The notes under the pieces were generated by a model that did no database searches, had not been told where the DNA came from, and saw only the letters and a program-made list of their open reading frames with translations. From Escherichia phage vB_EfeM_pEP20, in sequence record OQ743992: DNA of 64,000 nucleotides. One strand, written 5' to 3'. This document shows positions 4,253 to 53,279 of the stretch, piece by piece. How positions within the stretch are numbered: position 1 is the stretch's first letter; every line of letters begins with the position of its first letter. A program made the position numbers and the translations under genes.

Positions 4253-4979
4253 CCCCTTTTAACCAGCACTTCAGGTTATTAGCATCATAATTCAGTTTCG
4301 GGTATGAGGTTACATGGAACTGCTCACCATCATAGTAGACAATATCTGCAATCCATAGTCCGTTCTCTTTACAGAAATCTTTATCTGCTTTAGAGGTAAT
4401 TGGATTAACTTCTACAAAACCATCTACACCCAAATCCTTTAAGCTACATACAATACCTTTGCAGATAACGCATGTATCAGATACTACCACAAAAAGTTCT
4501 TGGCTTTCAAGTTCTACAATGTATTCACCAAGTTGAACTTTAGGGAGATTTGATTGCTTCATAATCTTCCCATCGGCTGCACGGGCAATCGCATACCACT
4601 CTTTACCATCAACTACTGACATTCTGATGATACACTCTTGACCAGTACGCTTCTCAATATCTGCAAGACGTTTTAAAGCTTCTTCATAGTCGTCTGTGTA
4701 CTTCAGGTCATTATTATGGCAAACAGCTTCCATAGCACCATTGTGGTCATGTTGTGACAGATAAATTAGACCGTCAAGAACATATTGCAAATCTGCCTGA
4801 GCATCCAGTGTCTCAATGGGGTCTTTCTCTTCAATTGCTTTTACAAGCTCTTTTGCTTCTTCAAGCATACACAGAGACTGGGATTTCAAAGATTCCCAAT
4901 ACTCATCACTGTAAGGTTGCTTTTGGGTGTTTCCGCAACGAAGATTCCAGTTTTTTACTGATTCTCTTGAGTTAAACAT
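4224..4979 (-). CDS. hypothetical protein with glutaredoxin/NrdH-like CxxC C-terminal region
   Basis: 251 aa; C-terminal VVVSDTCVICKGIVCSLKDLGVDGFVEV resembles a redoxin CxxC module; sits in the RNR neighbourhood. Confidence 0.45.
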   Translation of the reverse strand: MFNSRESVKNWNLRCGNTQKQPYSDEYWESLKSQSLCMLEEAKELVKAIEEKDPIETLDAQADLQYVLDGLIYLSQHDHNGAMEAVCHNNDLKYTDDYEEALKRLADIEKRTGQECIIRMSVVDGKEWYAIARAADGKIMKQSNLPKVQLGEYIVELESQELFVVVSDTCVICKGIVCSLKDLGVDGFVEVNPITSKADKDFCKENGLWIADIVYYDGEQFHVTSYPKLNYDANNLKCWLKGVGYNGFTEH

Positions 4980-5217
4980 TCGGACTCCTTAAAAATCTAT
5001 TAACTTTTAGCTCTCGTGTTTCAATATATTCCAGATGCTCACGTAACTCTTGACGTTTAAGCATTAGGTGCTGCATTTGAGATTCAACAGCTTCAACTTC
5101 TTTAATTATTGACTCTCTGGCATTTGCAAGAATGCGCTCAAGTTCTTCAATCTTGCTGTCAACCTTTGCTACATGGCTCACAGCTTTACTTTTGTTAAAC
5201 ATTTTATTCTCTCTCAA
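4972..5217 (-). CDS. hypothetical coiled-coil protein (81 aa)
   Basis: Track ORF rich in E/L/R/K heptad-like sequence. Confidence 0.45.
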   Translation of the reverse strand: MRENKMFNKSKAVSHVAKVDSKIEELERILANARESIIKEVEAVESQMQHLMLKRQELREHLEYIETRELKVNRFLRSPNV

Positions 5218-24096: not shown

Positions 24097-24132
24097 CAAA
24101 AAAAAAAAAAAGGCTCCCGTAAAAAGGAGCCT
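24097..24132. terminator. bidirectional rho-independent terminator between convergent blocks
   Basis: A14 run, then hairpin AGGCTCC-CGTAAAAA-GGAGCCT; read from the minus strand the hairpin is followed by a long T run. Confidence 0.65.
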
Positions 24133-24138
24133 TAAACT

Positions 24139-24510
24139 TTACTTTTCAGTATTCTTTGTGTTCTTTTCAGTAATAGCTTGGAGAGCTGATACTGATTGAG
24201 CCAGATTGTTCACACTATCAGAGAATTTATCAAGAGTCTTAGTAAGTTTTGCGTTCTCACCCTTAACATTCTCTAACTGAACTTTCTGGTTCTCCATCCC
24301 TAGCTGAAGCAGCCTCATATCAGACTGTAAATCACGAATAGCTGAATAATTACTTTTGGAATAATTATCTAACTGCTGTAACTTTGTTGTGATAGACACT
24401 TCTTGTTTACCATCCGAAACTTGCATGGTGGTATACATCCCAATAACACTAAAAATACCAACTACAATTGCACCAATATTATTTTTAAAAGCTTCCTCTA
24501 GCCACTTCAT
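24139..24510 (-). CDS. hypothetical membrane-anchored coiled-coil protein (123 aa)
   Basis: N-terminal hydrophobic segment then coiled coil; function not assignable. Confidence 0.45.
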   Translation of the reverse strand: MKWLEEAFKNNIGAIVVGIFSVIGMYTTMQVSDGKQEVSITTKLQQLDNYSKSNYSAIRDLQSDMRLLQLGMENQKVQLENVKGENAKLTKTLDKFSDSVNNLAQSVSALQAITEKNTKNTEK

Positions 24511-24704
24511 TTATTCTCCCCCTTAAAAGCTTTTTCTAAGTTATCTACGAACTCATCATCAATAGGTGTGTCTGTTTTACTAGCAAGATATCTTGCAAGC
24601 CTAAAGAACACTTTCTCAATCATGTATTCACTTAGAAGGGATAAAATGAGTTTCCAGAAGAAGCTACCTAGATTTTTTAGAAGAATTGCTAGGATTGTAG
24701 GCAT
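24507..24704 (-). CDS. hypothetical small membrane protein (65 aa)
   Basis: Hydrophobic N-terminal segment. Confidence 0.4.
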   Translation of the reverse strand: MPTILAILLKNLGSFFWKLILSLLSEYMIEKVFFRLARYLASKTDTPIDDEFVDNLEKAFKGENK

Positions 24705-24783: not shown

Positions 24784-27141
24784 TTAAGCAGTTCTTACCC
24801 AAGCCATTAACTTATAGAACTGGTTAGTAACACTAAATGCTGAACCAGAACCAGTACCACCTGTGTTACCGCTAACTGTGTGGCTGTGAGCACCAATACC
24901 AACAGTGTGCGCGTGGTTGCCAGTTGTGTTGGTTACACCTGTCCAAGTTCTTGACGCGTGGAAATCAGCAGCAGCACCGTAAGTGAAGTCAGAGCCTGTG
25001 AAGCCATGTGAAGCCTGAGCACTACCCATCTGAAACGCACCGCCCGCAGTGTAGAATGCACTGTTATCACTTCTGAACCAACCAACCACACCAGAAATCT
25101 CCATGTTACCTCTATCGTGAGCATGGTTGCCAGTCGTATTTGTCGCCTTAGTACCATAATCAAATGATGAAGTGGTAGAAGAGAAACTATGCGTGTGTGA
25201 AGGTAAGTTACCAACAGATAACGTTACAGAGTCTGAACCCCCAGTTGTAGCAACATCTGAACCGTTTGCTGCTGCAATTCTAATAGTTCTACCAACACCA
25301 TTATTCAGGTACGTCCAAGTTAGACCAGGAAGTGCTGTATTAGGGTTAACATTACTGTTAAACCACGTCACAATACCTACTGGATAGATTTTATTCAGGT
25401 CTGTAGAGTTACTAATTGCTTCTGCAATCTTCTGGTCAGTTTCAGCTTTAGTGTATGCACCAATCTCTGAAGGGGTAGGTTTCTGAGCTTCAGTGTAAAC
25501 CTTAGACCATTCAACCTCAAAGCCAAGTGTGTCTCTGGCTGACCTGTACCACATCCCACCATTTTTCGATTCAAATCTTAATTGTGCAGATGGTGTTAGA
25601 GCTTTCGCATTAGAGGCCATGTGCAAGACTAAACGGTTTTGCCCGCTAGATTTTGTCTCAAGATAGATTCCTGAGGGTTGGTCCCAAGCCACACCACCAG
25701 CAGCCTCGGTCTTCGAAGCTCTGAATGCTGACCAGAAATACTTTGAATCGGCTTCGGCTTTACCGTAATACCTTGCATCAAAGTTTGTGAAGTTGCTAGG
25801 TTGTACTTGACCACCAATTACTAAGTTTGCATTAATTGATACTTCGGAACCAATGCTTAGGCTTTTACCAGTTTTATAGTTATACAAACTAACAGTGTCA
25901 CTACCGTCGTCATTGCCAACATACCACCTATTCGTTCCATCATAATCCTTACCCCTAATGTAAAGTGCGGCGGTTGATTTTCCTTGTAACACGAGAGCTT
26001 CACCATTAGTGTTAATAACCTGCTTTGCAGTGAACGTGTTACTTCCATTAGTTCTTGCAATCGTACTTAATGTTGCTGCCGGAATATATCTAGAGTCGAT
26101 GTTAGCCCAATCTGAAGGTTGAACTTGACCAGTGATTCTGACATTTTTATTTGCTGATACTCCAGCAGCATCTAAGACCAAAGAGGTGTTAGTGGTGTAG
26201 TTGTAGATAGTTACACCATCACCTGAGCTACCTTTACCAAAATACCATAAGTTCCCGCCTTCATAATCTTTTGCAAGTAGATACAGGGATTCGTTTGCTG
26301 ATGCACATTGCAATGTGATAGCAGCAGCATTCGAGATAACACTCATAGTCCTAAATGTATTAGCACCTGTAAAAGTGTTATTACCAGCTAACTGTGCAAA
26401 TCTCTGATTAGCGACTGTCTGAGTAAAGTATCTAGCATCTAAGTTAGAGAAATCTGAAGGTTGGACTTGACCAGTGATTCTAAGTGACTTATTAAATGCT
26501 GCTGTTGCATCAAGGGTTAACATTGCACCAGTAGCATGATTGTACAAATATACATTAGTACTGTTTGCATTTCCCTGTCCAACATACCAAGTTTGCTGGT
26601 TATTAGAATCTCTACCTTGAATATATGAAGCACCTGCATTGGTTGCCTTCTTAAGAGTTAACTGCTCACCATCAGTTACGATTGCTTGCCTAATGCTGAA
26701 GTTATTTGTGACAGCAAGCCTTGCATATCTTGCATCATTCTCTTCATTAGTTCTCATACCAAGTTCATTAGGGCTTGGTTTATTCAAAGTATGATAAACA
26801 GTTGCCGACCTTGAAGCATCTGCAATAGTGAGTTTAAGACCATTTGAGTTAATTTTAAAAGTCTTTAAAATATCCCCAATAGTAATCTCAGAAGAATCTG
26901 TTGGGTCAAATACAGCCTTACCACCGTAAAGTAACTTGACAATACCTAAATCCCCCGTCATAGTGCTCCCAGCAATCTGAACAAACCTTTCTAGTTTGAA
27001 GGAAGCTAAGAAGTCTTGATAGGTCATTCTACGGTCTTCGTCGCCCAACATTTCAGGTCTTTTCTTAACTCTGATGTGCAATAGGTCTTCTGAACGAATT
27101 GTGTCGATTGAGTTTAATTGACTCAATTTGTAATCTGCCAT
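24784..27141 (-). CDS. tail fiber protein with three internal repeats and His-box C-terminal domain
   Basis: 785 aa; about 80-aa triplicated repeat (..LYNxxTGxxL...RITGQVQPSDxxNxDxRY); C-terminal GNHAH/GAHSH boxes. Confidence 0.7.
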   Translation of the reverse strand: MADYKLSQLNSIDTIRSEDLLHIRVKKRPEMLGDEDRRMTYQDFLASFKLERFVQIAGSTMTGDLGIVKLLYGGKAVFDPTDSSEITIGDILKTFKINSNGLKLTIADASRSATVYHTLNKPSPNELGMRTNEENDARYARLAVTNNFSIRQAIVTDGEQLTLKKATNAGASYIQGRDSNNQQTWYVGQGNANSTNVYLYNHATGAMLTLDATAAFNKSLRITGQVQPSDFSNLDARYFTQTVANQRFAQLAGNNTFTGANTFRTMSVISNAAAITLQCASANESLYLLAKDYEGGNLWYFGKGSSGDGVTIYNYTTNTSLVLDAAGVSANKNVRITGQVQPSDWANIDSRYIPAATLSTIARTNGSNTFTAKQVINTNGEALVLQGKSTAALYIRGKDYDGTNRWYVGNDDGSDTVSLYNYKTGKSLSIGSEVSINANLVIGGQVQPSNFTNFDARYYGKAEADSKYFWSAFRASKTEAAGGVAWDQPSGIYLETKSSGQNRLVLHMASNAKALTPSAQLRFESKNGGMWYRSARDTLGFEVEWSKVYTEAQKPTPSEIGAYTKAETDQKIAEAISNSTDLNKIYPVGIVTWFNSNVNPNTALPGLTWTYLNNGVGRTIRIAAANGSDVATTGGSDSVTLSVGNLPSHTHSFSSTTSSFDYGTKATNTTGNHAHDRGNMEISGVVGWFRSDNSAFYTAGGAFQMGSAQASHGFTGSDFTYGAAADFHASRTWTGVTNTTGNHAHTVGIGAHSHTVSGNTGGTGSGSAFSVTNQFYKLMAWVRTA

Positions 27142-27187
27142 TATAAATTTTCCTCTTAAAAGGGGCTACAAAGCCCCTGTAAAGAAA

Positions 27188-28363
27188 TTAAGCTGTTCTC
27201 TGCCATACATATACGACAAAAGATGGCTGCTCAACACTGAAAGCTTGACCACCACCCACAGAACCAGATGTCCCTGAGTGTGTATGTTCAGAGTTAGAGA
27301 CAGTAACAGTACCCGTATGACTGTGTGAACCAATATTAACAGTGTGGCTATGAGCACCAATTGCAACAGTATGGCTATGAGCACCAGATGATGCAGTTGT
27401 GCCTGAGAAGCTATGGGTGTGAGCACCTGCTAAATCAGTATAAATATTATTATCAATCCCAGCATAAGCAGATGCAGTAATAGCATTTGACCCACTTCTA
27501 TCATTACCCCTCAGTGGTACTCTATGGTTATGGTTACCATCATTACTTGTCGTGCCGCTAAACGTATGAGTGTGAGCACCAGCACTATTAGTCGTTTTTG
27601 TACCGTAATCAAAAGTTGATGTACTTTTTGAACCATAATCAAAACTAGAGATAGATACGCTTGCAGAGTGTGTGTGACCACCACCTGTTAGATAGATAGA
27701 GTGAGTATGTGCTGGTAAATTATTATTTGTTAATGCTACAGTCTGAGAACCAAACGTTGAACCAACAGGTCTAGAATCTGTATCATAACCAACTAGTGCT
27801 CTACCTTTAGAAACTAACTCCCAAGTACCTCCACAAAGCAAGTAAGTGGATGGGTTAGCAGAGTTAACAGATAGATGAATAGTCCCTACTGGATATGATG
27901 CTTGAATAGCTTTGTATAAATTATTCACTGCTCTCGCGGTAGCGTACTTATCAGCATCTTCGTTGTACAGGTTAGATGTTGTCCAGTTCTGAACATTACT
28001 TAAACCGACCTGTGCTTTAGTTGTATTGTGTGGGTTACTTTTGTCGTCAATATGCTGCTGAATTAAGTTATTCACTTCATCTGACGACATAATTTGTAGA
28101 TTAGCTCTTGCCTCAGCAACATTTACAATGTCTGACAAGTTATTAGCTGCAACTAATTGAAGAGAGTTAATAACATTATCAAGACCTACTTGTGATTTAG
28201 TTACACCATGAGGGTTATTCCTCAAAGATGCGTGAGGTGATAACAACTGTTCAAGCGTACATCTTTTATCCTCAACACCTTGCTTAAGATGGAAGATATC
28301 ACTCAAATCAATTGGTAAGGCCGCTTGTGGCAAGGCACTAATTTGAATTTCACCTACTGCCAT
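27188..28363 (-). CDS. tail fiber protein (paralogous His-box C-terminal domain)
   Basis: 391 aa; dense HTHS/HSHT boxes toward the C-terminus and the same terminal ...AFSV...RTA as the larger fiber. Confidence 0.7.
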   Translation of the reverse strand: MAVGEIQISALPQAALPIDLSDIFHLKQGVEDKRCTLEQLLSPHASLRNNPHGVTKSQVGLDNVINSLQLVAANNLSDIVNVAEARANLQIMSSDEVNNLIQQHIDDKSNPHNTTKAQVGLSNVQNWTTSNLYNEDADKYATARAVNNLYKAIQASYPVGTIHLSVNSANPSTYLLCGGTWELVSKGRALVGYDTDSRPVGSTFGSQTVALTNNNLPAHTHSIYLTGGGHTHSASVSISSFDYGSKSTSTFDYGTKTTNSAGAHTHTFSGTTSNDGNHNHRVPLRGNDRSGSNAITASAYAGIDNNIYTDLAGAHTHSFSGTTASSGAHSHTVAIGAHSHTVNIGSHSHTGTVTVSNSEHTHSGTSGSVGGGQAFSVEQPSFVVYVWQRTA

Positions 28364-28365
28364 TA

Positions 28366-28668
28366 TTAAGCTCCTACATATTCATATGTGTAAAGGTTTC
28401 TTGTACTTGTTGATGCAGTCCCAGTCTCAGACTTAATCAGATTCCAGCCATTAGCCACTAAATCTGGTTGCTCGGTTGCATATGAGCGAACTTCACCAAC
28501 AGTGCCATTTACTTTATTCAGCAGGTAGTTGATAATATAGTTGAACCACTGTCTACCCATAGGCTCACCCTTTAAAAGACCTGTCTCTTGAATTTCTGGT
28601 GGTGGTAAAACTTTTAACTGATTACCATCAGTATCCACTTCATTTGTAGACCAATTTAAAACTGCCAT
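28366..28668 (-). CDS. hypothetical tail protein (100 aa)
   Basis: Position in the tail module. Confidence 0.45.
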
Positions 28669-29522
28669 TAAGAATTTCCTTCTTGTTGTGATTTATCTTT
28701 TCTGCCTTTGACAATTTGTGCAACCTCAGCCATGATTCCATATGCACCACCTGCAACAGCTTCTTTACCAACGATGAAATATCCACTATTATTAGACCTA
28801 TCTACAGTCATGTAATCATCACTCTGTGAGTTTGCTGTTCTGTCAACCTTAAAGTAACCATCAATAACACCAGTATCTGCAAGACTACCTACTAAGTTAG
28901 ACTCCAGAGAGCCACCAGCGTTATTTGTGACAAGACCTCTGTTAGCATCAGTTACAAACCAGTTCTCTTTATCATCCACAATAGCAAGTGCTGAATCAGC
29001 AACCTCTACAGGTGTCCAAGCAGTCCCCTTTAAAGTAACATCTCTTAAGATAACAGCAGAACCAGTGGTTGTTGCAGAAATCTTTGATAGCGTATATGCA
29101 GCATCAAGAACGTTTTTTCTGGTGTTAATACGGATAACGATACCACCAGTCTTAGGAGTAATATGCTCAAAAATCTGAGAGAAAGTTGCACCATATAGCG
29201 TCATAATTGCTTTTTGCAAGAATGTTGGAGTAGTGTCAGAGCGTCTTAGGAAGATTTGGATATAAAGCATAGCTCTATATGTTTCATCATCAGCACCTAA
29301 AGGTCTAGGAACTTTAATCAGTGAGCCAATATTATCAAGTTGTTGGCCTACTGACGTCCTAATATTTCTCTCTGTGTGCATCTGCCAGCAAACATCCTCT
29401 AATGTTTGTAACTCATCAGTGATTGCTTTCAAGATACTTGTGTAGATAAACTTATCTTTAAACTGTGTTACAGTTCGTTCATCAAGTGTTTTGTAATAAA
29501 CACTATCAATCTTTTCAAACAT
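28668..29522 (-). CDS. hypothetical tail/baseplate protein (284 aa)
   Basis: Position in the tail module. Confidence 0.5.
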
Positions 29523-29524
29523 TA

Positions 29525-30993
29525 TTACTCCTTAGTGATGGTATACTGGCTACTTTCCCAAACAGTATATTGGTCACCGTCAACAGTAATTCTTGCTGTA
29601 GTATACTGCCCGTCACTAGGTGGAACTGATTGGTTATTTGATAATGCTACTTTAACTTCATTAATCTCAATACCTTTAATTACGTCATAGATATGTCCAT
29701 AGGTTCTGTTAGGGATAACATCATTACCAACCTTAAGAGTTCTTCCGTAGGCATTAATACCTTGTACAATGCTGTCTCTGATATCCTCTTCAGGGATTGT
29801 CAAGCTTTCTTCATCATATAAAGAGTAAGAGACTTTAACAAATGCGTATTTTGGTGTTGGTCTGCTGAAATAAATATTATGTGCCAAACCACCTAAATCA
29901 TGGGCTGTACCAAAAATTGAGCCATAAGCCCTAATACCAGCAGGTTTTGTATCCCAGATTGCTTGAGCTACATTATCATTTTGACCACCAACTACGACAA
30001 TCTTAAAAGATTTTGGTGGGAGACCTTCTGAGTTTGTCTCTTCAGTATCATTTTCAACACCTGAAGCATCTGAGACACCTTGAACTCTTTTAACAGCAGC
30101 TACAATTGCATCTAAAGTCCCTACACCAGTAACTGCTAAGGATTCTAAATATCTCTGTCTAAGTTCTGTGTCAGTTTCTTCGTTTCTACCAGTTGTTAAG
30201 TCATATCTGTTATAAATACTGTCAAGACCATCAACAGTTGTCTCAATCTCAATAAGCGTACCAGCCAAAGCAGGGGTAGCACCCACCTCTTCAGCTACTA
30301 CATCTGAAATAGTTGTAATTTTTGTAAAGGTCAGAAATGTTGTCGCAGTGACAACCATAGGGTTTGTTCTGGCAATGATATCACCCTCATCTTTATAGAC
30401 TCTCAATGATGCTCCATCATTAATGACTTCTGCCTTTGCTACAATACCACCATTAATAGCTTCTGCTAATTTTGTTAGAAGTGTGGTGATTGTGTCTGAT
30501 GAGGTTGGTTTATATGAGAAAATGACGTTATCAATAATAATAACATAATCTGCATCAGTTCGTAAAGAGTTAACTTCAAGGACAGCTTCAACACAATATG
30601 ATGGGGTTAGGGTAATGTTGTTAACTGGATAAAAGATATTTCCGGCAGTACTTCTTAATCTTGTTGTTGAAGGAATGGTAGCACCAGTCGTTCCAGTAAA
30701 CTCTACCTGACCTCTTGTTGCCTGTGCAACATATCTATATACAGCATTTAAAGCTGTAATATCATCAAGGTTAAAGCCTTCGGCCTTGTCAATTGTTCCA
30801 CCGTCATAGACTTCTGATAGAATCTCATGGGTATCTGCTAAAGACCTTGCAATTGAAGCTAGGAAGAGTCCTAATTGACTATCTTCAGAAACGTCAAGGT
30901 TTGGTGAAATATCTCTAAGAAGTCTTGATTTGATATTATCAAAAATCTCCTGATATCTTAGAGTTTGTAATCCTGTTGTAGTTAGTCCTGCCA

Positions 30994-30994
<1 letters not shown>
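29525..30994 (-). CDS. putative baseplate structural protein (489 aa)
   Basis: Size and position between baseplate-sized genes and fibers; no motif confirmed. Confidence 0.5.
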
Positions 30995-48080: not shown

Positions 48081-48156
48081 TGGAGAATCCGAAGGGACTC
48101 GAACCCTTATAAACCTGTTTTGCAGACAGGCACATAGCCATTTCTGTCACGGATTC
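48081..48156 (-). tRNA. tRNA-Cys (anticodon GCA)
   Basis: Hand-folded: perfect 7-bp acceptor, anticodon loop CTGCAAA, T-arm AAGGG-TTCGAGT-CCCTT, discriminator U, CCA encoded. Confidence 0.75.
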
Positions 48157-48160
48157 AAAT

Positions 48161-48253
48161 TGGAGGAAGATACCAGACTTGAACTGATACACCGATTTCT
48201 CAGCTACTGGCAGTTTAGCAAACTGCTCCCTTACCTTTTAGGGTTAATCTTCC
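48161..48253 (-). tRNA. tRNA-Ser (anticodon GCT), class II
   Basis: Perfect acceptor GGAAGAT/ATCTTCC, anticodon loop TTGCTAA, about 20-nt variable arm, T-loop TTCAAGT. Confidence 0.75.
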
Positions 48254-48254
48254 A

Positions 48255-48989
48255 TTATTTCTGTAATGCGTTCTTCATTTCTGGTGTTGCAATAGTGTCA
48301 ATTACACCAGTTTTACAAGCATCATCAAACCAGTCTGGTAAGATACCTGCTAAGAACCCATTGATATTCGTTTTAAGGTACTCTGCAATAAGGGCAGCTT
48401 CTTCTTCAATCATCTGCACAACTTCATCTGCATAAGCTGTAATCTTTGAGATACCTTCATTAATCTTGCTAACAGCTTGGTTAGCTAAATCAGAAATAGT
48501 ATCAAGACCTTTATCAATAGCATCTTGTAAGTCACTTAATACATCGTTAACACCGTCTAGTGCACTGTTAATTGTGTCAATAGCTTTTTGACCATATTCT
48601 GTAGCAACACCCATAATACCACTAAATGGTGTACAACCAACTTGCTCTCCTGCTGCACCCATAACATTGGAATATCCTTTTGCTACCTGCATACGTGATG
48701 AAAACTCATCAATGGACTTTTGACCGTAATCTGTCAGTGTCTTAGTGGTTGATGTAGTGCTTGTCAGACTCGTTGTAAAGCTGTTAAGCAGAACTGTTGT
48801 AAGTCCAGCGGCAACAAGTTTATCCTTTATTGTAGGGTCTGTTACAGAGCTAATAGAGCTTACAAGTGATGTAGAGGCAGCTACGGTTCCACCGAGAACT
48901 GCTGCACCAGTAATAAGGGGATTAGAAAACCCTCTACCGGTTTTTAAGAGACCAAAAATCTCCTTACCTTGTTCTGTCATCTCTTTCAT
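48255..48989 (-). CDS. hypothetical protein with hydrophobic segment and coiled-coil region, embedded in the tRNA array
   Basis: Start taken at ATG 48989 (MKEMTEQ...) behind AAAGGTG; the longer track start would overlap a tRNA-like gene. Confidence 0.45.
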   Translation of the reverse strand: MKEMTEQGKEIFGLLKTGRGFSNPLITGAAVLGGTVAASTSLVSSISSVTDPTIKDKLVAAGLTTVLLNSFTTSLTSTTSTTKTLTDYGQKSIDEFSSRMQVAKGYSNVMGAAGEQVGCTPFSGIMGVATEYGQKAIDTINSALDGVNDVLSDLQDAIDKGLDTISDLANQAVSKINEGISKITAYADEVVQMIEEEAALIAEYLKTNINGFLAGILPDWFDDACKTGVIDTIATPEMKNALQK

Positions 48990-49005
48990 TAAGCACCTTT
49001 GAAAT

Positions 49006-49080
49006 TGGTAGTTCAGTGGGATTTGAACCCTCTTCTCATGTTTTTCAGACACGCGCTTTAACCATATAAGCTACTTGGAC
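49006..49080 (-). tRNA. tRNA-like gene with Phe-type anticodon arm (GAA); acceptor stem does not pair, possible pseudo-tRNA
   Basis: Good D-arm (GCTT/AAGC) and anticodon arm (loop CTGAAAA), T-loop TTCAAAT, but 5' GTCCAAG cannot pair with 3' TGAACTA. Confidence 0.35.
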
Positions 49081-49087
49081 TATAAAT

Positions 49088-49163
49088 TGGGGTGACCTAC
49101 GGGATTTGAACCCGTATAGACCATGTTCACAGCATGGGTCATTACCATTTATGATAAGGCCAC
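49088..49163 (-). tRNA. tRNA-His (anticodon GTG)
   Basis: Acceptor GTGGCCT/AGGTCAC, D-stem TCAT/ATGA, anticodon loop CTGTGAA, T-arm ACGGG-TTCAAAT-CCCGT. Confidence 0.7.
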
Positions 49164-49194
49164 ATTTAAGGACTCTCGTAAGAATCCTTAGAAG

Positions 49195-49270
49195 TGGCAG
49201 CGGCATAAGGATTTGAACCTTAATAAGACAGCTTCAGAGACTGCTGCATTGCCAGTTATGCTATACCGCT
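49195..49270 (-). tRNA. tRNA-Gln (anticodon CTG)
   Basis: Acceptor AGCGGTA/TGCCGCT, D-stem GCAT/ATGC, anticodon loop CTCTGAA. Confidence 0.6.
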
Positions 49271-49275
49271 AAATT

Positions 49276-49354
49276 TGGTACTCCATATCGGATTCGAACC
49301 GATACATAACACAGATTTTAAGTCTGGCCTCTCTGCCAATTGGAGTAATGGAGC
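49276..49354 (-). tRNA. tRNA with Leu-type anticodon TAA but short variable arm (atypical)
   Basis: Acceptor GCTCCAT/ATGGAGT, perfect T-arm ATCGG-TTCGAAT-CCGAT, Leu-like D-loop AATTGGCAGAG, anticodon loop CTTAAAA, discriminator A, variable region only about 7 nt. Confidence 0.5.
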
Positions 49355-49356
49355 AT

Positions 49357-49432
49357 TGGCGGGGGATGCTGGAATTGAACCAGCTTCTTCGATTTCAAAG
49401 ACCGAGGTTTTAACCTTGTAAACTAATCCCCT
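49357..49432 (-). tRNA. tRNA-Gln (anticodon TTG)
   Basis: D-stem GTTT/AAAC, anticodon arm TCGGT-CTTTGAA-ATCGA, T-arm GCTGG-TTCAATT-CCAGC; first acceptor pair mismatched. Confidence 0.6.
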
Positions 49433-49440
49433 TTAAATCT

Positions 49441-49998
49441 TTACTTTCTTAGTGGATGAATAAAGAATGCCAACATAACTCTTTCCCTTGAGAATGCTCT
49501 TTCTTCTGGGACAACACTTTTTAGTTTCCATCCAATATAAATTCTCCAGTAAAACTGTTTACCAAAGACTTTAATTGATGGGATAAAAGCGAATAATCCC
49601 CAAGCATTACTGTTCCACATTAGGAGATAACCAGTCTGATTATCTTCAGGGTCAGAACTTACGTTGATATTACCTTTCCACTTAGTAACATCTTTTACAT
49701 CTCTTCCTAATACATGGTAAGAGAAGTTATAAGCTTTGTTTCTCCAGAGCCATCCAACTCTCTGCATATAAACACCAAGCTTACCAATCTTTCTAATCTT
49801 AGCCCATCTCTCAACGTGGCCTTTGTCACCATCAATCGGGTTGTCATAGGTCTCCATCCATCTGAATCCAAAAGGTAGATGCCCTTTCTTCTCGCTGTAG
49901 AATGGAACCACAAATGGTGCTAAGATTACTGCTAAGATTGCTGCAAATGGTTCTAGCAAAGCTAGGAAAATCCATGAAGCATATTTTAAATATCTCAT
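49441..49998 (-). CDS. hypothetical membrane protein (185 aa) inside tRNA array
   Basis: N-terminal hydrophobic helices (IFLALLEPFAAILAVILAPFVVPF). Confidence 0.45.
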   Translation of the reverse strand: MRYLKYASWIFLALLEPFAAILAVILAPFVVPFYSEKKGHLPFGFRWMETYDNPIDGDKGHVERWAKIRKIGKLGVYMQRVGWLWRNKAYNFSYHVLGRDVKDVTKWKGNINVSSDPEDNQTGYLLMWNSNAWGLFAFIPSIKVFGKQFYWRIYIGWKLKSVVPEERAFSRERVMLAFFIHPLRK

Positions 49999-50237
49999 CG
50001 TCTAATCCTTGTAAGGAGATAAGTGTTATTATTTGTTTCTGAGTTTTCTGGTAACATTGTCTCAAAATTGACACTTTTAAGTTGTCTTCCACCAAAGTAA
50101 TGACCAATAAATTTTTCTACTCTTATTGGGTCGCATTCCCAGCCGACTTTCAAGAAAATGTGGGTATCTATAGTGGGAACCCTTACAAACTCAACACTAT
50201 TGGAATTTTCATGTTCAACGACTATTAATGTTTGCAT
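49995..50237 (-). CDS. hypothetical protein (80 aa) inside tRNA array
   Basis: Track ORF with overlap to downstream gene. Confidence 0.4.
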   Translation of the reverse strand: MQTLIVVEHENSNSVEFVRVPTIDTHIFLKVGWECDPIRVEKFIGHYFGGRQLKSVNFETMLPENSETNNNTYLLTRIRR

Positions 50238-50245
50238 AAATCCCT

Positions 50246-50321
50246 CTTACTTAATTGGCGCAGGATAAGGGATTCGAACCCCTATTAACAGCTTCGTAGA
50301 CTGTTGCTCTATCCATTTGAA
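50246..50321 (-). tRNA. tRNA-Arg (anticodon ACG)
   Basis: Perfect acceptor GCAGGAT/ATCCTGC, anticodon loop CTACGAA, T-loop TTCGAAT. Confidence 0.7.
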
Positions 50322-50326
50322 CTAAT

Positions 50327-50404
50327 CCTGCAAAATTGGTGTTCCAAGACGGATTCGAACCGTCACTAGTACAAGGTTTGAGCTTGCATCCTCTGCCAAT
50401 TGGG
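50327..50404 (-). tRNA. tRNA with Leu-type anticodon CAA but short variable arm (atypical)
   Basis: Acceptor GTTCCAG/TTGGAAC, Leu-like D-loop AATTGGCAGAG, anticodon arm GCAAG-CTCAAAC-CTTGT, perfect T-arm GACGG-TTCGAAT-CCGTC, discriminator A, 6-nt variable region. Confidence 0.5.
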
Positions 50405-50405
50405 A

Positions 50406-50480
50406 TACTGGAACATGGTACTCACTAAAGGACTTGAACCTTTTTCTTCATCTTGTAAGGGTGATGTTTTACCATATAAA
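50406..50480 (-). tRNA. tRNA-Val (anticodon TAC)
   Basis: Acceptor ACTCGCT/AGTGAGT, D-stem GTTT/AAAC, anticodon loop CTTACAA, T-arm AAAGG-TTCAAGT-CCTTT. Confidence 0.65.
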
Positions 50481-50577
50481 CTAAGCGAGTGTGAAAAGAG
50501 GTCTGAAGTTGTGCCGCTAACTCAACTCCGTGGAATTTGTTACGGTCTTCAGTTGACTCAAAGCGGTCTTTCACTTG

Positions 50578-50653
50578 ACCTCTAAATTGGTGCTCCCACA
50601 AGGATTCGAACCCTGATAAGTTGCTTACAAGGCAACCGTAATAGCCAATTATA
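50578..50653 (-). tRNA. tRNA-Thr (anticodon TGT)
   Basis: Acceptor GCTCCTA/TGGGAGC, anticodon arm GTTGC-CTTGTAA-GCAAC, T-loop TTCGAAT. Confidence 0.65.
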
Positions 50654-50660
50654 CGATAGG

Positions 50661-50735
50661 AGCATTAATTTGGAGCATCCAGAGGGAATCGAACCCTCAA
50701 CCTCAGTTTGGAAGACTGTAATTTTCCCGTTTAAA
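50661..50735 (-). tRNA. tRNA-Gly (anticodon TCC)
   Basis: Perfect acceptor GCATCCA/TGGATGC, anticodon loop CTTCCAA, T-arm GAGGG-TTCGATT-CCCTC. Confidence 0.7.
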
Positions 50736-50741
50736 CTATGG

Positions 50742-50817
50742 ATGCACTAATTGGTGGAGTCACTGAGAATTGAACTCAGTTCCCAAGTTTGCAAAACTCG
50801 AATTTTAACCATATAAA
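50742..50817 (-). tRNA. tRNA-Ala (anticodon TGC)
   Basis: Acceptor GGGGTCA/TGACTCC with the G3-U70 pair, anticodon loop TTTGCAA, T-arm CTGAG-TTCAATT-CTCAG. Confidence 0.75.
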
Positions 50818-50824
50818 CTATGAC

Positions 50825-50900
50825 CCCCATTGTTTGGTACAGGTGGATGGAATTGAACCCATCGTCTTACTGATTAAGAGTCAGCCGCATAACCATTTTG
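50825..50900 (-). tRNA. tRNA-Lys (anticodon CTT)
   Basis: Acceptor GCAGGTG/CACCTGT, anticodon arm GCTGA-CTCTTAA-TCAGT, T-stem GATGG/CCATC. Confidence 0.6.
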
Positions 50901-50907
50901 CTACACC

Positions 50908-50984
50908 TGCATTAATTTGGTACACCTAGAGAGATTCGAACTCACACTGAGCAGATTCTAAGTCTGCTGCCTCTACCAGTTGGG
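50908..50984 (-). tRNA. tRNA with Leu-type anticodon TAG but short variable arm (atypical)
   Basis: Acceptor GCACCTA/TAGGTGT, Leu-like D-loop CAACTGGTAGAG, perfect anticodon arm GCAGA-CTTAGAA-TCTGC, T-loop TTCGAAT, discriminator A, 5-nt variable region. Confidence 0.5.
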
Positions 50985-51249
50985 CTATAGGTGCATTAAA
51001 TCTTTTTAGAGAACTTCTAAGAACCTAAGCAACAAGGTTCCACAACAAGCTGTAATAACCTTAGAAGCCCTCTAAAAAGACCTAAATAGGTCTTTGCATA
51101 GTCTTGTTTAATCCGGTGACTAGAACCTTTGGAGAGCTTGATATTATCTCTTCTCCGTGACACCTACTAGGTGCTTTATCAGTGTGTACGACAATACACG
51201 AGGGATAAACCGAAAATGCGAGCAAGCATGGACGGTATAAATCTTATTA

Positions 51250-51339
51250 GGCGGTAAGTAAAGGAGTCGAACCCTCACCGTATCTCTACAGTGGCAACTG
51301 TTTTCAAGACAGTTTGGCTACCATTAGCCGCTACCTACC
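51250..51339 (-). tRNA. tRNA-Ser (anticodon TGA), class II
   Basis: Acceptor GGTAGGT/ACTTACC, perfect anticodon arm ACTGT-CTTGAAA-ACAGT, 20-nt variable arm, T-loop TTCGACT; CCA not fully encoded. Confidence 0.65.
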
Positions 51340-51352
51340 CCTAATAAGACTT

Positions 51353-51435
51353 TGGCATGGGACGGAGGAGTTGAACCACTTTGAAACGGTTTTGGAGGCC
51401 GTTGCTCATGCCTTAGAGTCTTAACATCGTCCCAT
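51353..51435 (-). tRNA. tRNA-like gene with Trp-type anticodon loop (CCA) and expanded 5' D region (atypical)
   Basis: Perfect 7-bp acceptor ATGGGAC/GTCCCAT with discriminator G and CCA; loop CTCCAAA on stem ACGG/CCGT; about 8 extra nt before the D-arm and a weak T-stem. Confidence 0.4.
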
Positions 51436-51587
51436 ACTTTAATTCGAAGCTTACCGTATTTTCGCAACACTGTAAAGCCCCTTCTCAGATTATTTACATG
51501 TTCTGGAAAACATGAGATACAGACCACCTCCTTACACGGAGACCCGATAAGGTCGTCTAAGCAATCTGCTAACTATTTGGCACACCC

Positions 51588-51664
51588 TACAGGATTCGAA
51601 CCTGTAACTAACGATTTAGAAGACCGTTGCTCTATCCAATTGAACTAAGGGTGCATTAATCTTT
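51588..51664 (-). tRNA. tRNA-Arg (anticodon TCT)
   Basis: Acceptor GCACCCT/AGGGTGT, D-stem GTTC/GAGC, anticodon arm ACGGT-CTTCTAA-ATCGT, T-arm ACAGG-TTCGAAT-CCTGT. Confidence 0.7.
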
Positions 51665-51991
51665 AAAGACTCTCTTAGAAAGCCCTTAAAGATGCCCACC
51701 TTATTAATCATACCGTGGGCTAGTACGCCAAATTCTTTGATGAGGGATTGGAAGACCTCACTGGTGTTTAGCCTATCAAGCTACTGCCAGAAAAACATTG
51801 TCGTTTGCATTTATTTTAAATTTGCAAAATAGACGCTACGCAACGAAAACTATTCAGAATATGTACAACAAATTTCCCCACATTGTGTTACGTCTAACGC
51901 TCATGTATTGGTGTTTGAATTATACATATTATGAATCATTTTTAGTTACTATAAAGCGGTCACATCTCAATGTCAACAACTTTATTGAAAT

Positions 51992-52067
51992 TGGTGCTGG
52001 TAGGTGGAATCGAACCACCGATATTCCCTTATCAGGGGAGTGTTATAACCTTCTTAACTATACCAGC
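51992..52067 (-). tRNA. tRNA-Ile (anticodon GAT)
   Basis: Perfect acceptor GCTGGTA/TACCAGC, D-stem GTTA/TAAC, anticodon loop CTGATAA, T-arm GGTGG-TTCGATT-CCACC. Confidence 0.7.
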
Positions 52068-52068
52068 T

Positions 52069-52145
52069 TGGAGGTTCAGATGGGAATCGAACCCACATTC
52101 ATAGGGCTTATGAAACCCCTGCATTACCTTATCTGCGACTGAACC
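52069..52145 (-). tRNA. tRNA-Met (anticodon CAT)
   Basis: Acceptor GGTTCAG/CTGAACC, anticodon arm with three consecutive G-C pairs and loop TTCATAA, T-arm GTGGG-TTCGATT-CCCAT. Confidence 0.65.
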
Positions 52146-52149
52146 ATAT

Positions 52150-52225
52150 TGGTAGAAGTAGAGGGATTCGAACCCATCGCCTGTCAGATTAAAAGTCTGC
52201 CGCATCACCATTCTGCTACACTTCC
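52150..52225 (-). tRNA. tRNA-Lys (anticodon TTT)
   Basis: Acceptor GGAAGTG/TACTTCT (two G-U pairs), anticodon loop CTTTTAA, T-loop TTCGAAT with a weak stem. Confidence 0.55.
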
Positions 52226-52229
52226 ATTA

Positions 52230-52373
52230 AATTATCTTTGTAGATAAGCTACCCAGACTTGCTTAAGGTCTGTAGCGATGTGCCTTTTTGGGTTTAAATC
52301 TAGAATTTACCCTTTCACCCTTTGTGGTCGCATACTCACAGGTAAGCTTAATAACTTATCTACAAAGATAATT
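52230..52373. repeat. 19-bp perfect inverted repeat (AATTATCTTTGTAGATAAG) enclosing about 106 bp
   Basis: Arms at 52230-52248 and 52355-52373 are exact reverse complements; the enclosed sequence holds hairpin CCCAGAC-TTGCTTAAG-GTCTG. Confidence 0.6.
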
Positions 52374-52374
52374 A

Positions 52375-52506
52375 CCAGACCGTTGTTTATCATCTTAAGT
52401 GCTACCATTACACCAACTCGACATCTGCCGAGTGAAGGAATCGAACCTTCGCCTTTTCTTTACCGGAGAAATAGATTGTTTAAAGTTTGCTGTAAACGGT
52501 CTTCTG
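52375..52506 (-). ncRNA. candidate Y-RNA-like ncRNA U1 with embedded tRNA-like module (YrlA-like architecture)
   Basis: Minus-sense 5' CAGAAGACCGUUUACAGCAAAC ... ACGGUCUGG 3' with termini pairing (AGACCGU/ACGGUCU); interior has hairpin UUUCU-CCGGUAA-AGAAA, T-arm GAAGG-UUCGAUU-CCUUC, closed acceptor-like hairpin ACUCGGC-AGAU-GUCGAGU, D-arm GUG-UAAUGGUAG-CAC. Confidence 0.5.
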
Positions 52507-52519
52507 TAAATTTGTTGAG

Positions 52520-52604
52520 CCAGACCAAGTTTTAAATTTTTCAAAATTAAATTGGCTTGAAATTTTAAGTAACTTGCTGAATTTGGTCTTCTGCTCCTTT
52601 AAAG
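52520..52604 (-). ncRNA. candidate Y-RNA-like ncRNA U2
   Basis: Minus-sense 5' CAGAAGACCAAAUUCAGCAAG ... UUGGUCUGG 3'; terminal stem AGACCAA/UUGGUCU covaries with U1/U3. Confidence 0.45.
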
Positions 52605-52690
52605 AATACTCGTAAGAACTCTTTAAGGGAGGGGCTAAATAGCCCTCTCAAACATCATTTTGAAATACTTATTATAATTTGGCGGTTACG

Positions 52691-52768
52691 AAGGGATTCG
52701 AACCCTCATCATCTCCCGTGACAGGGGAGTATTTTAACCAGATTAAACTACATAACCTTCATTTGGTG
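52691..52768 (-). tRNA. tRNA-Asp (anticodon GTC)
   Basis: Acceptor GGTTATG/CGTAACC, perfect anticodon arm CTCCC-CTGTCAC-GGGAG, T-loop TTCGAAT. Confidence 0.7.
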
Positions 52769-52774
52769 TGCCGT

Positions 52775-52862
52775 GTAGGAGTCGAACCTACCGAGTCTTA
52801 ATGACAAGGGATTTACAGTCCCCACCGCTACCATCTACGGGATAACGACACATTTAAATTTG
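52775..52862 (-). tRNA. tRNA-Tyr (anticodon GTA), class II
   Basis: Acceptor GTGTCGT/ACGGCAC, anticodon loop CTGTAAA, long variable arm, T-arm GTAGG-TTCGACT-CCTAC. Confidence 0.65.
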
Positions 52863-52871
52863 GCGGTTAGT

Positions 52872-52948
52872 CAGGGATTCGAACCCTGTGCCATTCGCTT
52901 AACAGGCGACCGCACATACCTTATGTGCTTCCTAACCTTAATACATTG
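52872..52948 (-). tRNA. tRNA-Asn (anticodon GTT)
   Basis: D-stem GCAC/GTGC, anticodon loop CTGTTAA, T-arm CAGGG-TTCGAAT-CCCTG; last acceptor pair mismatched. Confidence 0.65.
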
Positions 52949-52959
52949 CCAGACCGTGT

Positions 52960-53020
52960 TTTTTCTTTTATCCACAAAAAAGTAGTTTGTTGCTGAATAC
53001 GGTCTTCTGCAAAATTGGAG
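52960..53020 (-). ncRNA. candidate Y-RNA-like ncRNA U3
   Basis: Minus-sense 5' CAGAAGACCGUAUUCAGCAAC ... CACGGUCUGG 3'; internal hairpin CUUUUUU-GUGGAU-AAAAGA. Confidence 0.45.
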
Positions 53021-53026
53021 GCGGGT

Positions 53027-53103
53027 GCAGGAGTCGAACCTGCCGATACCATGCTAATGAGACATGTGAGACGCCCTTTCTCTATACCCGCAATTCTTAA
53101 TGA
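53027..53103 (-). tRNA. tRNA with anticodon CAT (second Met, or Ile2 if lysidine-modified)
   Basis: Anticodon arm CATGT-CTCATTA-GCATG, T-arm GCAGG-TTCGACT-CCTGC; first acceptor pair mismatched. Confidence 0.6.
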
Positions 53104-53114
53104 CCAGACCAAAT

Positions 53115-53187
53115 CTCTTCTTTGTCCGATTTCGTGTCAGATGAATAAGCTTAAGTTTGCTGTAATTGGTCTTCTGTCAAAACTGGC
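53115..53187 (-). ncRNA. candidate Y-RNA-like ncRNA U4
   Basis: Minus-sense 5' CAGAAGACCAAUUACAGCAAAC ... UUGGUCUGG 3'; same conserved 5' core and covarying terminal stem as U2. Confidence 0.45.
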
Positions 53188-53194
53188 GTTCCAG

Positions 53195-53272: not shown

Positions 53273-53279
53273 CTCTGTT

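What the first reader, a model, noticed from the sequence alone, without database searches (positions are those of the whole stretch)
24784..28363. Two adjacent tail-fiber paralogs with His-box C-terminal domains; the larger carries an internal triplication
Both fibers end with dense HxH boxes (GNHAH, GAHSH, HTHS) and the same terminal ...AFSV...RTA. The 785-aa fiber has three about 80-aa internal repeats. His-box distal fiber domains are associated with receptor binding in T-even-like fibers, so these two genes are the likely host-range determinants and may recombine with each other.
Basis: partly seen in the sequence, partly recalled or inferred. Interest (0 to 1): 0.4.

Follow-up and report, generated by a model that had tools for sequence, protein, structure and literature searches.

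The report
Felix O1-type short and long tail fibres

Summary
ORFs 27188-28363(-) (391 aa) and 24784-27141(-) (785 aa) are exact matches to the two annotated tail fibre proteins of Escherichia phage vB_EfeM_pEP20, a Felixounavirus. By synteny with the baseplate proteins of PDB 9NDY they correspond to Bas63 gp26 (short fibre, STF) and gp27 (long fibre, LTF). The Bas63 cryo-EM paper (2025) describes both as carrying a T4 gp37-like collar-needle-head tip with HxH motifs.

I confirmed 9 HxH motifs in the STF and 4 in the LTF. They align in register with the T4 gp37 iron sites (2XGF: E 2.8e-27 and 1.1e-8). The shared C-terminal ...AFSV...RTA motif is also confirmed. The LTF has three repeats of 106-114 aa (34-42% identity; Pfam gp37_trimer x3).

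Corrections:
- The His boxes are structural metal sites of the needle.
- The variable head sits between the descending and ascending His boxes.
- The chain folds back, so the C-terminus is not the distal end.
- The two genes share detectable sequence similarity only in the tip (32% identity).
- Their longest common DNA word is 12 nt, so mutual recombination has no substrate here. It has clearly happened in Felix O1, as noted in 2010.

The LTF is a cassette mosaic of known alleles. Novelty: already known. Interest is low.

The parts
27188..28363 (-). Short tail fibre (STF) gene, 391 aa; equivalent of Bas63 gp26 / Felix O1 gp76; identical to WHM53050.1 of phage vB_EfeM_pEP20
   Evidence: ORF; PHROG 2097 tail fibre E 1.6e-138; exact protein look-up; gene order after the 9NDY homologues gp23-gp25
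27929..28363 (-). STF N-terminal part (aa 1-145). Baseplate-binding domain plus helix-and-turn shaft with two NPHxxTKxQVGLxNV motifs (around aa 50-64 and 110-124). Conserved 72-100% per 25-residue bin (mostly 88% or more) among 11 relatives
   Evidence: Sliding identity; sequence; domain role taken from the Bas63 cryo-EM description
27710..27928 (-). STF collar domain (aa 146-218), T4 gp10_C / gp37 collar type
   Evidence: Pfam Gp10_C 69.1 bits, cut-off 27; phmmer to 2XGF and T4 gp10 structures
27524..27709 (-). STF descending needle strand (aa 219-280) with 4 HxH motifs (219, 230, 264, 278)
   Evidence: aligned in register with T4 gp37 H883/H915/H929 motifs
27422..27523 (-). STF head (aa about 281-314). 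The His-free turn between the two needle strands, and the least conserved stretch of the STF: 84-88% in close alleles (except KEP2, 96-100%), 12-48% in most distant ones
27278..27421 (-). STF ascending needle strand (aa 315-362) with 5 HxH motifs (315, 329, 338, 347, 360)
27191..27277 (-). STF C-terminal return to the collar (aa 363-391), ending GGGQAFSVEQPSFVVYVWQRTA; counterpart of T4 gp37 ...NIAFNYIVRLA
   Evidence: Alignment with T4 gp37; chain topology
24784..27141 (-). Long tail fibre (LTF) gene, 785 aa; equivalent of Bas63 gp27 / Felix O1 gp77; identical to WHM53049.1 of phage vB_EfeM_pEP20
   Evidence: ORF; PHROG 4277 full-length match, 1298 bits; exact look-up
26707..27141 (-). LTF N-terminal part (aa 1-145): attachment to the LTF platform and first shaft segment; 80-100% conserved within Felixounavirus, 52-80% in the two Mooglevirus relatives
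   Evidence: role
26386..26706 (-). LTF repeat 1 (aa 146-252), Pfam gp37_trimer
26044..26385 (-). LTF repeat 2 (aa 253-366), Pfam gp37_trimer
25726..26043 (-). LTF repeat 3 (aa 367-472), Pfam gp37_trimer
25402..25704 (-). LTF fifth shaft domain (aa 480-580), Pfam gp37_C; related to residues 338-427 of the phage Mu tail fibre S chain in 8JU3
   Evidence: Pfam 52.6 bits; 8JU3 E 8e-18
25342..26091 (-). Recombinant cassette (codons about 351-600). This stretch is 83-100% identical in DNA to phage Andreotti but only 43-65% to phage Shy over codons 351-550. Shy matches the rest of the gene at 92-100%
25198..25386 (-). LTF collar domain (aa 586-648)
25117..25197 (-). LTF descending needle strand (aa 649-675) with 2 HxH motifs (649, 673)
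24916..25116 (-). LTF head (aa about 676-742). Enlarged His-poor insert, the most variable part of the tip (12-32% identity to Felix O1, finno, REP12 and AYO145A alleles). Modelled with pLDDT below 50
24880..24915 (-). LTF ascending needle strand (aa 743-754) with 2 HxH motifs (743, 752)
   Evidence: these four HxH are invariant in 49 aligned tips
24787..24879 (-). LTF C-terminal return (aa 755-785), ending GSGSAFSVTNQFYKLMAWVRTA
28366..28668 (-). Context: LTF platform protein (100 aa), the baseplate attachment point of the long fibre
   Evidence: PDB 9NDY chain S 'LTF platform protein (gp025)', E 7e-59, full length
28668..29522 (-). Context: baseplate wedge protein 1 (284 aa)
   Evidence: 9NDY chain J 'Wedge protein 1 (gp024)', E 2.8e-157
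29525..30994 (-). Context: baseplate wedge protein 2 (489 aa, Baseplate_J); in Bas63 its D2 domain holds the STF
   Evidence: 9NDY chain H 'Wedge protein 2 (gp023)', 1015 bits; Pfam Baseplate_J; role

Best explanation
The two genes encode the two fibres of a Felix O1-like myovirus (Felixounavirus; the sequence is phage vB_EfeM_pEP20).

Anatomy. Each fibre is presumably a homotrimer (published for Bas63). An N-terminal domain plugs it into the baseplate: the short fibre on wedge protein 2, the long fibre on the 100-aa platform protein encoded just upstream. Each ends in a T4 gp37-type tip. The tip begins with a collar domain, after which the chain runs down as one strand of a six-stranded beta needle. 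It forms a small variable head at the far end and runs back up the needle to finish in the collar.

HxH motifs. Each HxH motif from the three chains would supply six histidines that hold one metal ion (iron in T4) on the needle axis. This gives up to 9 sites in the short fibre and 4 in the long one. The His boxes are therefore a structural rivet for the needle. The head between them is the likely contact surface for the lipopolysaccharide receptor.

Long-fibre shaft. It is built from three homologous beta-rich repeats plus a fourth, different domain, joined by conserved linkers.

Variation. Among related phages the heads and each shaft cassette are exchanged independently by recombination. This phage's long fibre is one such mosaic.

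Basis of each step:
- Shown here: homology, motif register, repeats, synteny, mosaicism.
- Taken from the literature: trimer state, attachment points, folding along the sheath.
- Inferred: metal binding, which residues touch the receptor, and the division of labour between the two fibres.
For: Identity:
- Exact matches to WHM53049.1 and WHM53050.1 of phage vB_EfeM_pEP20.
- 230 phage records match the locus, almost all Felixounavirus.
- The flanking 20 kb is 97-98% identical to O157-infecting Felixounaviruses.

Synteny with the solved Bas63 baseplate (9NDY): gp23, gp24 and gp25 homologues lie immediately upstream.

Tip homology:
- STF residues 146-361 against the T4 gp37 tip 2XGF, E 2.8e-27.
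- LTF residues 643-764, E 1.1e-8.
- A profile of 49 tips against 2XGF, E 2.2e-15.
- Pfam Gp10_C on both proteins (the LTF match is below the curated cut-off).
- HxH motifs align in register with the seven T4 motifs, with a His-free head between.

Repeats.

Variability:
- It peaks in the heads and shaft cassettes, while the N-termini, collars and C-terminal strands stay largely conserved.
- The DNA mosaic is Shy-like / Andreotti-like / Shy-like.

Literature:
- Bas63 STF gp26 and LTF gp27 with collar-needle-head tips and HxH motifs.
- VpaE1 gp74 and gp75 C-termini homologous to T4 gp37.
- Felix O1 gp77 is a virion protein.
Against: - No fibre coordinates of any Felixounavirus are in the PDB copy searched. 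Metal binding and the trimer geometry therefore rest on the T4 analogy.
- The AlphaFold2 monomer of the LTF tip is mediocre (mean pLDDT 67; head below 50). Foldseek did not retrieve 2XGF.
- The Pfam Gp10_C score of the LTF is just below the curated cut-off (24.2 against 27 bits).
- Nothing here shows which fibre, or which part of it, binds the receptor.
- In a Salmonella Felixounavirus, variants that rose in frequency during host challenge mapped to LTF residues 497 and 534, in the fifth shaft domain and not the tip.
Confidence: 0.9

Rival explanations
1. Host range of the long fibre is set mainly by the shaft cassettes (the three gp37_trimer repeats and the gp37_C domain), which act as lateral sugar-binding modules. 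On this view the tip head is a secondary or generic contact.
For: - The cassettes are replaced independently between phages with otherwise near-identical backbones. In phage Shy, LTF residues 351-550 drop to 32-60% identity while the flanks stay at 84-100%. In KEP2, repeat 1 alone drops to 32-40%.
- Variants that rose during host challenge of a Salmonella Felixounavirus lie at LTF residues 497 and 534, inside the gp37_C domain.
- That domain is related to part of the phage Mu tail fibre S protein.
Against: - No binding data exist.
- The Bas63 authors treat these domains as a rod like that of T4 gp34.
- The heads are at least as variable as the cassettes.
- In T4 the tip is the established receptor contact (established knowledge; also stated).
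Confidence: 0.25
2. The two fibres are redundant and recognise the same receptor, as a simple duplicate pair would.
For: - In Felix O1 the distal needle and head of the two fibres are about 92% identical (STF 250-315 against LTF 664-729). This suggests a single specificity there.
- Both tips belong to one family.
Against: - In this window the heads differ in length (about 34 against about 67 residues) and have no detectable similarity.
- The tips are only 32-42% identical overall.
- The fibres differ in HxH number (9 against 4), in length and in attachment site.
Confidence: 0.12
3. The histidine boxes are themselves the receptor-binding or catalytic residues (a metal-dependent enzyme or lectin site), not internal structural metal sites.
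For: The density of HxH motifs is striking, and HxH is used in some metalloenzyme sites (general knowledge).
Against: [quoted passage not shown]
- They are the invariant part of the tip family, with 8 invariant His in 49 sequences, whereas receptor contacts should vary.
- No enzyme family matched either protein.
Confidence: 0.03

Closest known systems
Bas63 (Escherichia phage JohannRWettstein) short tail fibre gp26 and long tail fibre gp27 (cryo-EM, Sci Adv 2025, PMC12609058)
   Same: - Same genus.
- Same gene order after wedge 2, wedge 1 and the LTF platform.
- Same architecture: N-terminal baseplate-binding domain, shaft, then a collar-needle-head tip with HxH motifs.
   Different: - Different tip alleles. 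Bas63 is reported with 7 (STF) and 6 (LTF) di-histidine motifs; this phage has 9 and 4.
- The paper counts five beta-helix shaft domains in the LTF. Sequence analysis here finds three clear repeats plus the gp37_C domain, and no significant further copy.
- I could not retrieve the Bas63 fibre sequences for a direct alignment.
T4 long tail fibre distal subunit gp37, receptor-binding tip (PDB 2XGF)
   Same: - Collar, HxH needle, head, and a C-terminal strand ending hydrophobic-R-x-A.
- Motifs are in register, with 50% (STF) and 38% (LTF) identity over 134-141 residues.
   Different: - T4 gp37 is 1026 aa and is one of four proteins in a jointed fibre. It needs the chaperones gp38 and gp57A (established knowledge).
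- Here each fibre is a single protein, and no gp38-like gene follows.
- T4 has 7 HxH motifs in its tip.
- T4 gp37 does not match Pfam gp37_trimer or gp37_C, despite their names.
Felix O1 gp76 / gp77 and VpaE1 gp74 / gp75
   Same: - Orthologous pair, of 388/782 aa in Felix O1.
- C-terminal homology to T4 gp37 was reported in 2010 and 2015.
   Different: - Felix O1 has 9 and 6 HxH motifs.
- Its two genes share a near-identical head, with 51- and 32-nt exact DNA repeats. This window's pair does not.
T4 gp10 / gp12 C-terminal domains and the phage tail collar fold
   Same: The collar of both fibres matches Pfam Gp10_C and T4 gp10 structures.
   Different: gp10 is a baseplate protein without a His needle. 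Here the needle and head follow the collar, and the chain ends back at it.
Phage Mu tail fibre protein S (8JU3) and T7 gp17 C-terminal region (4A0T)
   Same: - LTF residues 482-573 match Mu S chain residues 338-427 (E 8e-18).
- The repeat core matches T7 gp17 chain residues 47-113 weakly (E 0.002).
   Different: These are single shaft or tip modules in otherwise unrelated fibres. Neither has the HxH needle.

Membership tests
T4 gp37-type receptor-binding tip (collar-needle-head) | Collar domain of the gp10_C / tail-collar type preceding the needle | tested here: met
T4 gp37-type receptor-binding tip (collar-needle-head) | HxH motifs on a descending and an ascending strand, in register with the T4 motifs | tested here: met
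   STF 4+5 and LTF 2+2 motifs align with T4 H883/915/929 and H966/980/989/998. Sequence match to 2XGF E 2.8e-27 and 1.1e-8
T4 gp37-type receptor-binding tip (collar-needle-head) | Variable His-poor head between the two strands, with the chain returning to a conserved C-terminal strand | tested here: met
   His-free inserts at STF 281-314 and LTF 676-742 are the least conserved bins. The C-terminal ...AF..V...R.A aligns with T4 ...IAFNYIVRLA
T4 gp37-type receptor-binding tip (collar-needle-head) | Intertwined homotrimer forming a six-stranded needle | tested here: inconclusive
   Only a monomer could be modelled (pLDDT 67). Its needle strands are predicted as beta at pLDDT about 80, but their packing cannot be judged
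T4 gp37-type receptor-binding tip (collar-needle-head) | Axial iron (or other metal) ions bound by the histidines | not testable with these tools
   Needs metal analysis or a structure
Felixounavirus STF/LTF pair (Bas63 gp26/gp27, Felix O1 gp76/gp77) | Position directly downstream of wedge 2, wedge 1 and the LTF platform genes | tested here: met
   Full-length matches to 9NDY chains H, J and S. Same order in 12 related loci (KEP2 by ORF finding)
Felixounavirus STF/LTF pair (Bas63 gp26/gp27, Felix O1 gp76/gp77) | Orthology to annotated fibres of recognised genus members | tested here: met
   STF tip 93-98% identical in 38 listed records. LTF tip 80-97% identical in about 34 records. N-termini 80-100% within the genus. 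Exact match to phage vB_EfeM_pEP20
Felixounavirus STF/LTF pair (Bas63 gp26/gp27, Felix O1 gp76/gp77) | Presence in the virion | not testable with these tools
   Published for Felix O1 gp77 and for VpaE1; not tested for this phage
Pfam PF20744 gp37_trimer repeat | Match above the gathering score, three copies | tested here: met
   198.5 bits against a cut-off of 21.7, three stretches. Also three copies in the wV8, Felix O1 and finno LTFs

The most novel reading that the evidence does not exclude
The long fibre may be a modular, multivalent adhesin. On this reading each shaft cassette (repeats 1-3 and the gp37_C domain) binds surface sugars in its own right, and specificity is re-set by cassette shuffling at the conserved linkers. 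This phage's unique Andreotti-type replacement of repeat 3 plus gp37_C in an O157-type fibre would then be an adaptation to its own host. That host is probably Escherichia fergusonii, judging only from the 'Efe' in the phage name. Separately, exchange of heads between the two fibres, as in Felix O1, would toggle the phage between one and two tip specificities.
Probability: 0.2. Interest if true: 0.4.

Novelty: already known. Interest (0 to 1): 0.1.

Why it matters
These two genes are the obvious targets for predicting or engineering the host range of Felix O1-like phages, which are used for Salmonella and E. coli O157 typing and biocontrol. The practical additions from this re-analysis are:
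- a residue-level map for this phage (head segments, HxH sites, cassette boundaries);
- the finding that its long fibre is a recombinant of known cassettes;
- the finding that the two fibres carry different heads, which suggests two specificities.

None of this changes current understanding.

Tried and rejected
- N-terminal paralogy. A profile-profile comparison of the first 150 residues of the STF and LTF (12 phages each) gave probability 1.5%, E 0.034. There is no sequence evidence. The published claim of a shared fold there could not be tested.
- Extra repeats. An HMM of the three LTF repeats found no significant fourth or fifth copy in the LTF, the STF or T4 gp37. I therefore could not reproduce the 'five beta-helix domains' count from sequence.
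- Recombination substrate between the two genes in this window: rejected (12-nt longest word).
- Intragenic substrate among the three repeats: longest shared words are 17, 11 and 9 nt.
- Bas63 sequence. My guess at the accession (MZ501111) returned Bas51 WalterGehring. The link to Bas63 therefore rests on the PDB baseplate chains and on the paper.
- The T4 gp37 tip paper (PMC2996694) is not held, so head and needle boundaries were derived from the motif alignment.
- No paper on phage vB_EfeM_pEP20 was found.
- The first attempt at cross-paralog identities used a faulty motif anchor and was redone.
Full report
OBSERVATION. The 391-aa protein has 24 histidines, 18 of them in nine HxH motifs between residues 219 and 362. 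The 785-aa protein has four HxH motifs between residues 649 and 754. Residue shuffles give means of 1.4 and 0.24 motifs, and in 20,000 shuffles the maxima were 8 and 4. Both proteins end ...AFSV...W.RTA. The internal triplication is real. Pfam gp37_trimer matches three stretches (E 1.5e-59). Direct DNA repeats recur at spacings of 318 and 342 nt. My alignment of residues 146-252, 253-366 and 367-472 gives 34-42% pairwise identity with 26 invariant positions. The period is therefore 106-114 aa; 'about 80 aa' describes only the conserved core.

WHAT THE WINDOW IS. The locus matches 230 phage records, nearly all Felixounavirus (Felix O1-like myoviruses of Escherichia, Salmonella and Shigella). 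The adjoining 20 kb is 97-98% identical to O157-infecting members such as SME50, Shy and KEP2. An exact-sequence look-up shows that both proteins are WHM53049.1 and WHM53050.1 of Escherichia phage vB_EfeM_pEP20, annotated as tail fibre proteins. The three genes immediately upstream match, over their full length, the Bas63 baseplate chains in PDB 9NDY. These are wedge protein 2 (gp023; 1015 bits), wedge protein 1 (gp024; E 2.8e-157) and the LTF platform protein (gp025; E 7e-59). By gene order the 391-aa protein is the counterpart of Bas63 gp26, the short tail fibre (STF). The 785-aa protein is the counterpart of gp27, the long tail fibre (LTF).

THE TIPS. STF residues 146-361 match the crystal-structure sequence of the T4 gp37 receptor-binding tip (2XGF) with E 2.8e-27, and also match T4 gp10. 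LTF residues 643-764 match 2XGF with E 1.1e-8. A profile of 49 homologous tips raises this to 2.2e-15.

A multiple alignment with T4 gp37 puts the HxH motifs in register. T4 has three motifs on the way out (H883, H915, H929) and four on the way back (H966, H980, H989, H998). The STF has 4+5 and the LTF 2+2. Between the two runs lies a His-free stretch, at STF about 281-314 and LTF about 676-742. After the last motif both proteins, like T4 (...NIAFNYIVRLA), finish with a conserved hydrophobic strand.

As summarised in the Bas63 paper, the T4 tip has a collar, a six-stranded needle whose di-histidine motifs coordinate iron ions, and a head that contacts the receptor. The chain doubles back at the head and returns to the collar. 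It follows that the His boxes are structural, the head is the probable contact surface, and the shared C-terminal motif lies near the collar and not at the distal end.

The four LTF motifs are invariant in all 49 aligned tips, so they form the minimal core. HxH counts in that set range from 4 to 9, and the window's STF has the most.

THE LONG-FIBRE SHAFT. After a conserved N-terminal 145 residues come the three gp37_trimer repeats, followed by a gp37_C domain at residues 480-580. That domain is related to part of the phage Mu tail fibre S protein (E 8e-18), and the repeat core is weakly related to T7 gp17 (E 0.002). T4 gp37 itself matches neither Pfam family, so their 'gp37' names are misleading. 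All three LTF length classes examined (782-785, 843 and 848 aa) have three repeats. The triplication is therefore old and shared, not a feature of this phage. The longer forms carry a different, larger domain in place of most of gp37_C. An HMM of the three repeats finds no significant further copy.

VARIATION AND MOSAICISM. I aligned both proteins with those of 11 relatives. In the STF, the N-terminal half is 72-100% conserved. Identity falls lowest over residues 276-325, the head: 84-88% in all close alleles but KEP2, and as low as 12% in the most distant one.

In the LTF, the N-terminus, the inter-repeat linkers, the collar and the C-terminal strand are conserved within the genus. Each repeat core, the gp37_C domain and the head vary independently. 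KEP2, for example, is 92-100% identical over most of the protein, but only 32-40% in repeat 1 and 12-48% over residues 376-550. At the DNA level the window's LTF is Shy-like in codons 1-350 (92-100%), Andreotti-like in codons 351-600 (83-100%) and Shy/KEP2-like in codons 601-785 (one search gives 96% protein identity to Andreotti for residues 351-560). The LTF is a singleton at 90% clustering among about 15 billion proteins, whereas the STF sits in a 259-member cluster. The allele combination is thus unique, but every cassette is known.

DO THE TWO GENES RECOMBINE? Detectable similarity between them is confined to the tip (32% identity over 245 aligned columns, E 9e-19). The N-terminal 150 residues give no significant profile match. 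Their longest common DNA word is 12 nt, and the best local DNA alignment is 37 nt at 86%. There is no realistic substrate in this genome.

Across 12 phages, STF-LTF tip identity is 35-63%, with Felix O1 the outlier. In Felix O1, STF 250-315 and LTF 664-729 are about 92% identical. The genes share 270 nt at 81% identity, including a 51-nt exact word. This shows that head exchange between the two fibres has occurred in the family. The repeats were already reported in the Felix O1 genome paper. Some LTF tips (AYO145A, REP12) are 60-74% identical to T4 gp37, which points to exchange with T-even phages as well.

MECHANISM. By sequence and synteny (shown here) and by the Bas63 reconstruction (published), six STF trimers sit on wedge 2 and six LTF trimers on the gp25 platform, and both fold back along the sheath before infection. 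The remaining steps are inferred. Metal-riveted needles present two different heads to the cell surface. Felixounaviruses are generally held to target LPS and not protein receptors. Fibre binding then triggers the baseplate. Which fibre acts first, and whether the shaft cassettes also bind, is unknown. Variants that rose in frequency during host challenge of a Salmonella relative lie at LTF residues 497 and 534, in gp37_C, which keeps that alternative open.

COMPARISON AND VERDICT. The published record covers the main points:
- C-terminal homology of both fibres to T4 gp37 (2010 for Felix O1; 2015 for VpaE1).
- The variable middle region of the long fibre (2015).
- The full STF/LTF architecture with HxH counts and conservation mapping (2025).

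The proteins themselves are deposited and annotated. The finding is a correct reading of an already known feature. The only new items are this phage's motif counts (9 and 4), its residue-level map and its recombinant LTF.

Noticed in passing
window 27158-27178 (minus strand), between the STF stop and the LTF start: A 7-bp GC-rich hairpin (AGGGGCU UUGU AGCCCCU) followed by UUUU lies 9 nt after the STF stop codon and just before the LTF ribosome-binding site (AAGAGGAAAA). The homologous spot is annotated as a Rho-independent terminator in wV8 and AYO145A. It could attenuate read-through into the LTF gene. The simple terminator scan did not call it, and the fold z-score is only -1.6.
   Followed up: partly
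window 24139-24704 (minus strand) and 24110-24133: Two small overlapping ORFs follow the LTF: 65 aa and 123 aa, both with a hydrophobic N-terminal segment. Homologues of the 123-aa protein are annotated as holin in Sf14, Silverhawkium, finno and Andreotti. No tail-fibre chaperone gene (gp38- or Tfa-like) is present. A strong hairpin plus T-run at 24110-24133 ends this leftward operon, head-on with the thymidylate synthase and DHFR genes on the other strand.
   Followed up: partly
window 48081-53345 (minus strand): A cluster of 26 tRNA genes, more than the 22 reported for Felix O1.
   Followed up: no
L004 (Felix O1) 2276-2545 and 4735-5004: In Felix O1 the short and long fibre genes share 270 nt at 81% identity (51-nt exact word) and a roughly 92% identical distal needle and head. 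The two fibres probably present the same head there, unlike in this window. The DNA repeats were noted in the 2010 genome paper, but I found no discussion of what they imply for receptor use.
   Followed up: partly
L012 (AYO145A) and L011 (REP12), LTF tips: The LTF tips of AYO145A and REP12 are 74% (129 aa) and 60% (184 aa) identical to the T4 gp37 tip. This is far above the 36-50% seen for the other alleles and suggests fairly recent module exchange between Felixounavirus and T-even phages.
   Followed up: no
L006 (wV8), L003 (KEP2), L010 (finno), LTF residues about 476-640: The 843-849-aa LTF variants replace most of the gp37_C domain with a larger domain that no Pfam family matched (12% identity to the window over residues 476-525). 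Only the last 30 or so residues of gp37_C remain.
   Followed up: partly
Database hits: Felixounavirus-type fibre sequences turn up in records named Campylobacter phage A126 (43 kb), Staphylococcus phage SA1 and a partial 'Pseudomonas aeruginosa' protein (92% identity). These look like contaminated or mislabelled records, not real host jumps.
   Followed up: no
One search hits: The collar-needle-head tip module is widespread in prophage tail fibres of Erwinia, Mixta, Photorhabdus, Providencia, Serratia and Pragia. There it is joined to other N-terminal fibre domains (PF03406, PF12571), so it behaves as a mobile module across Enterobacterales.
   Followed up: no
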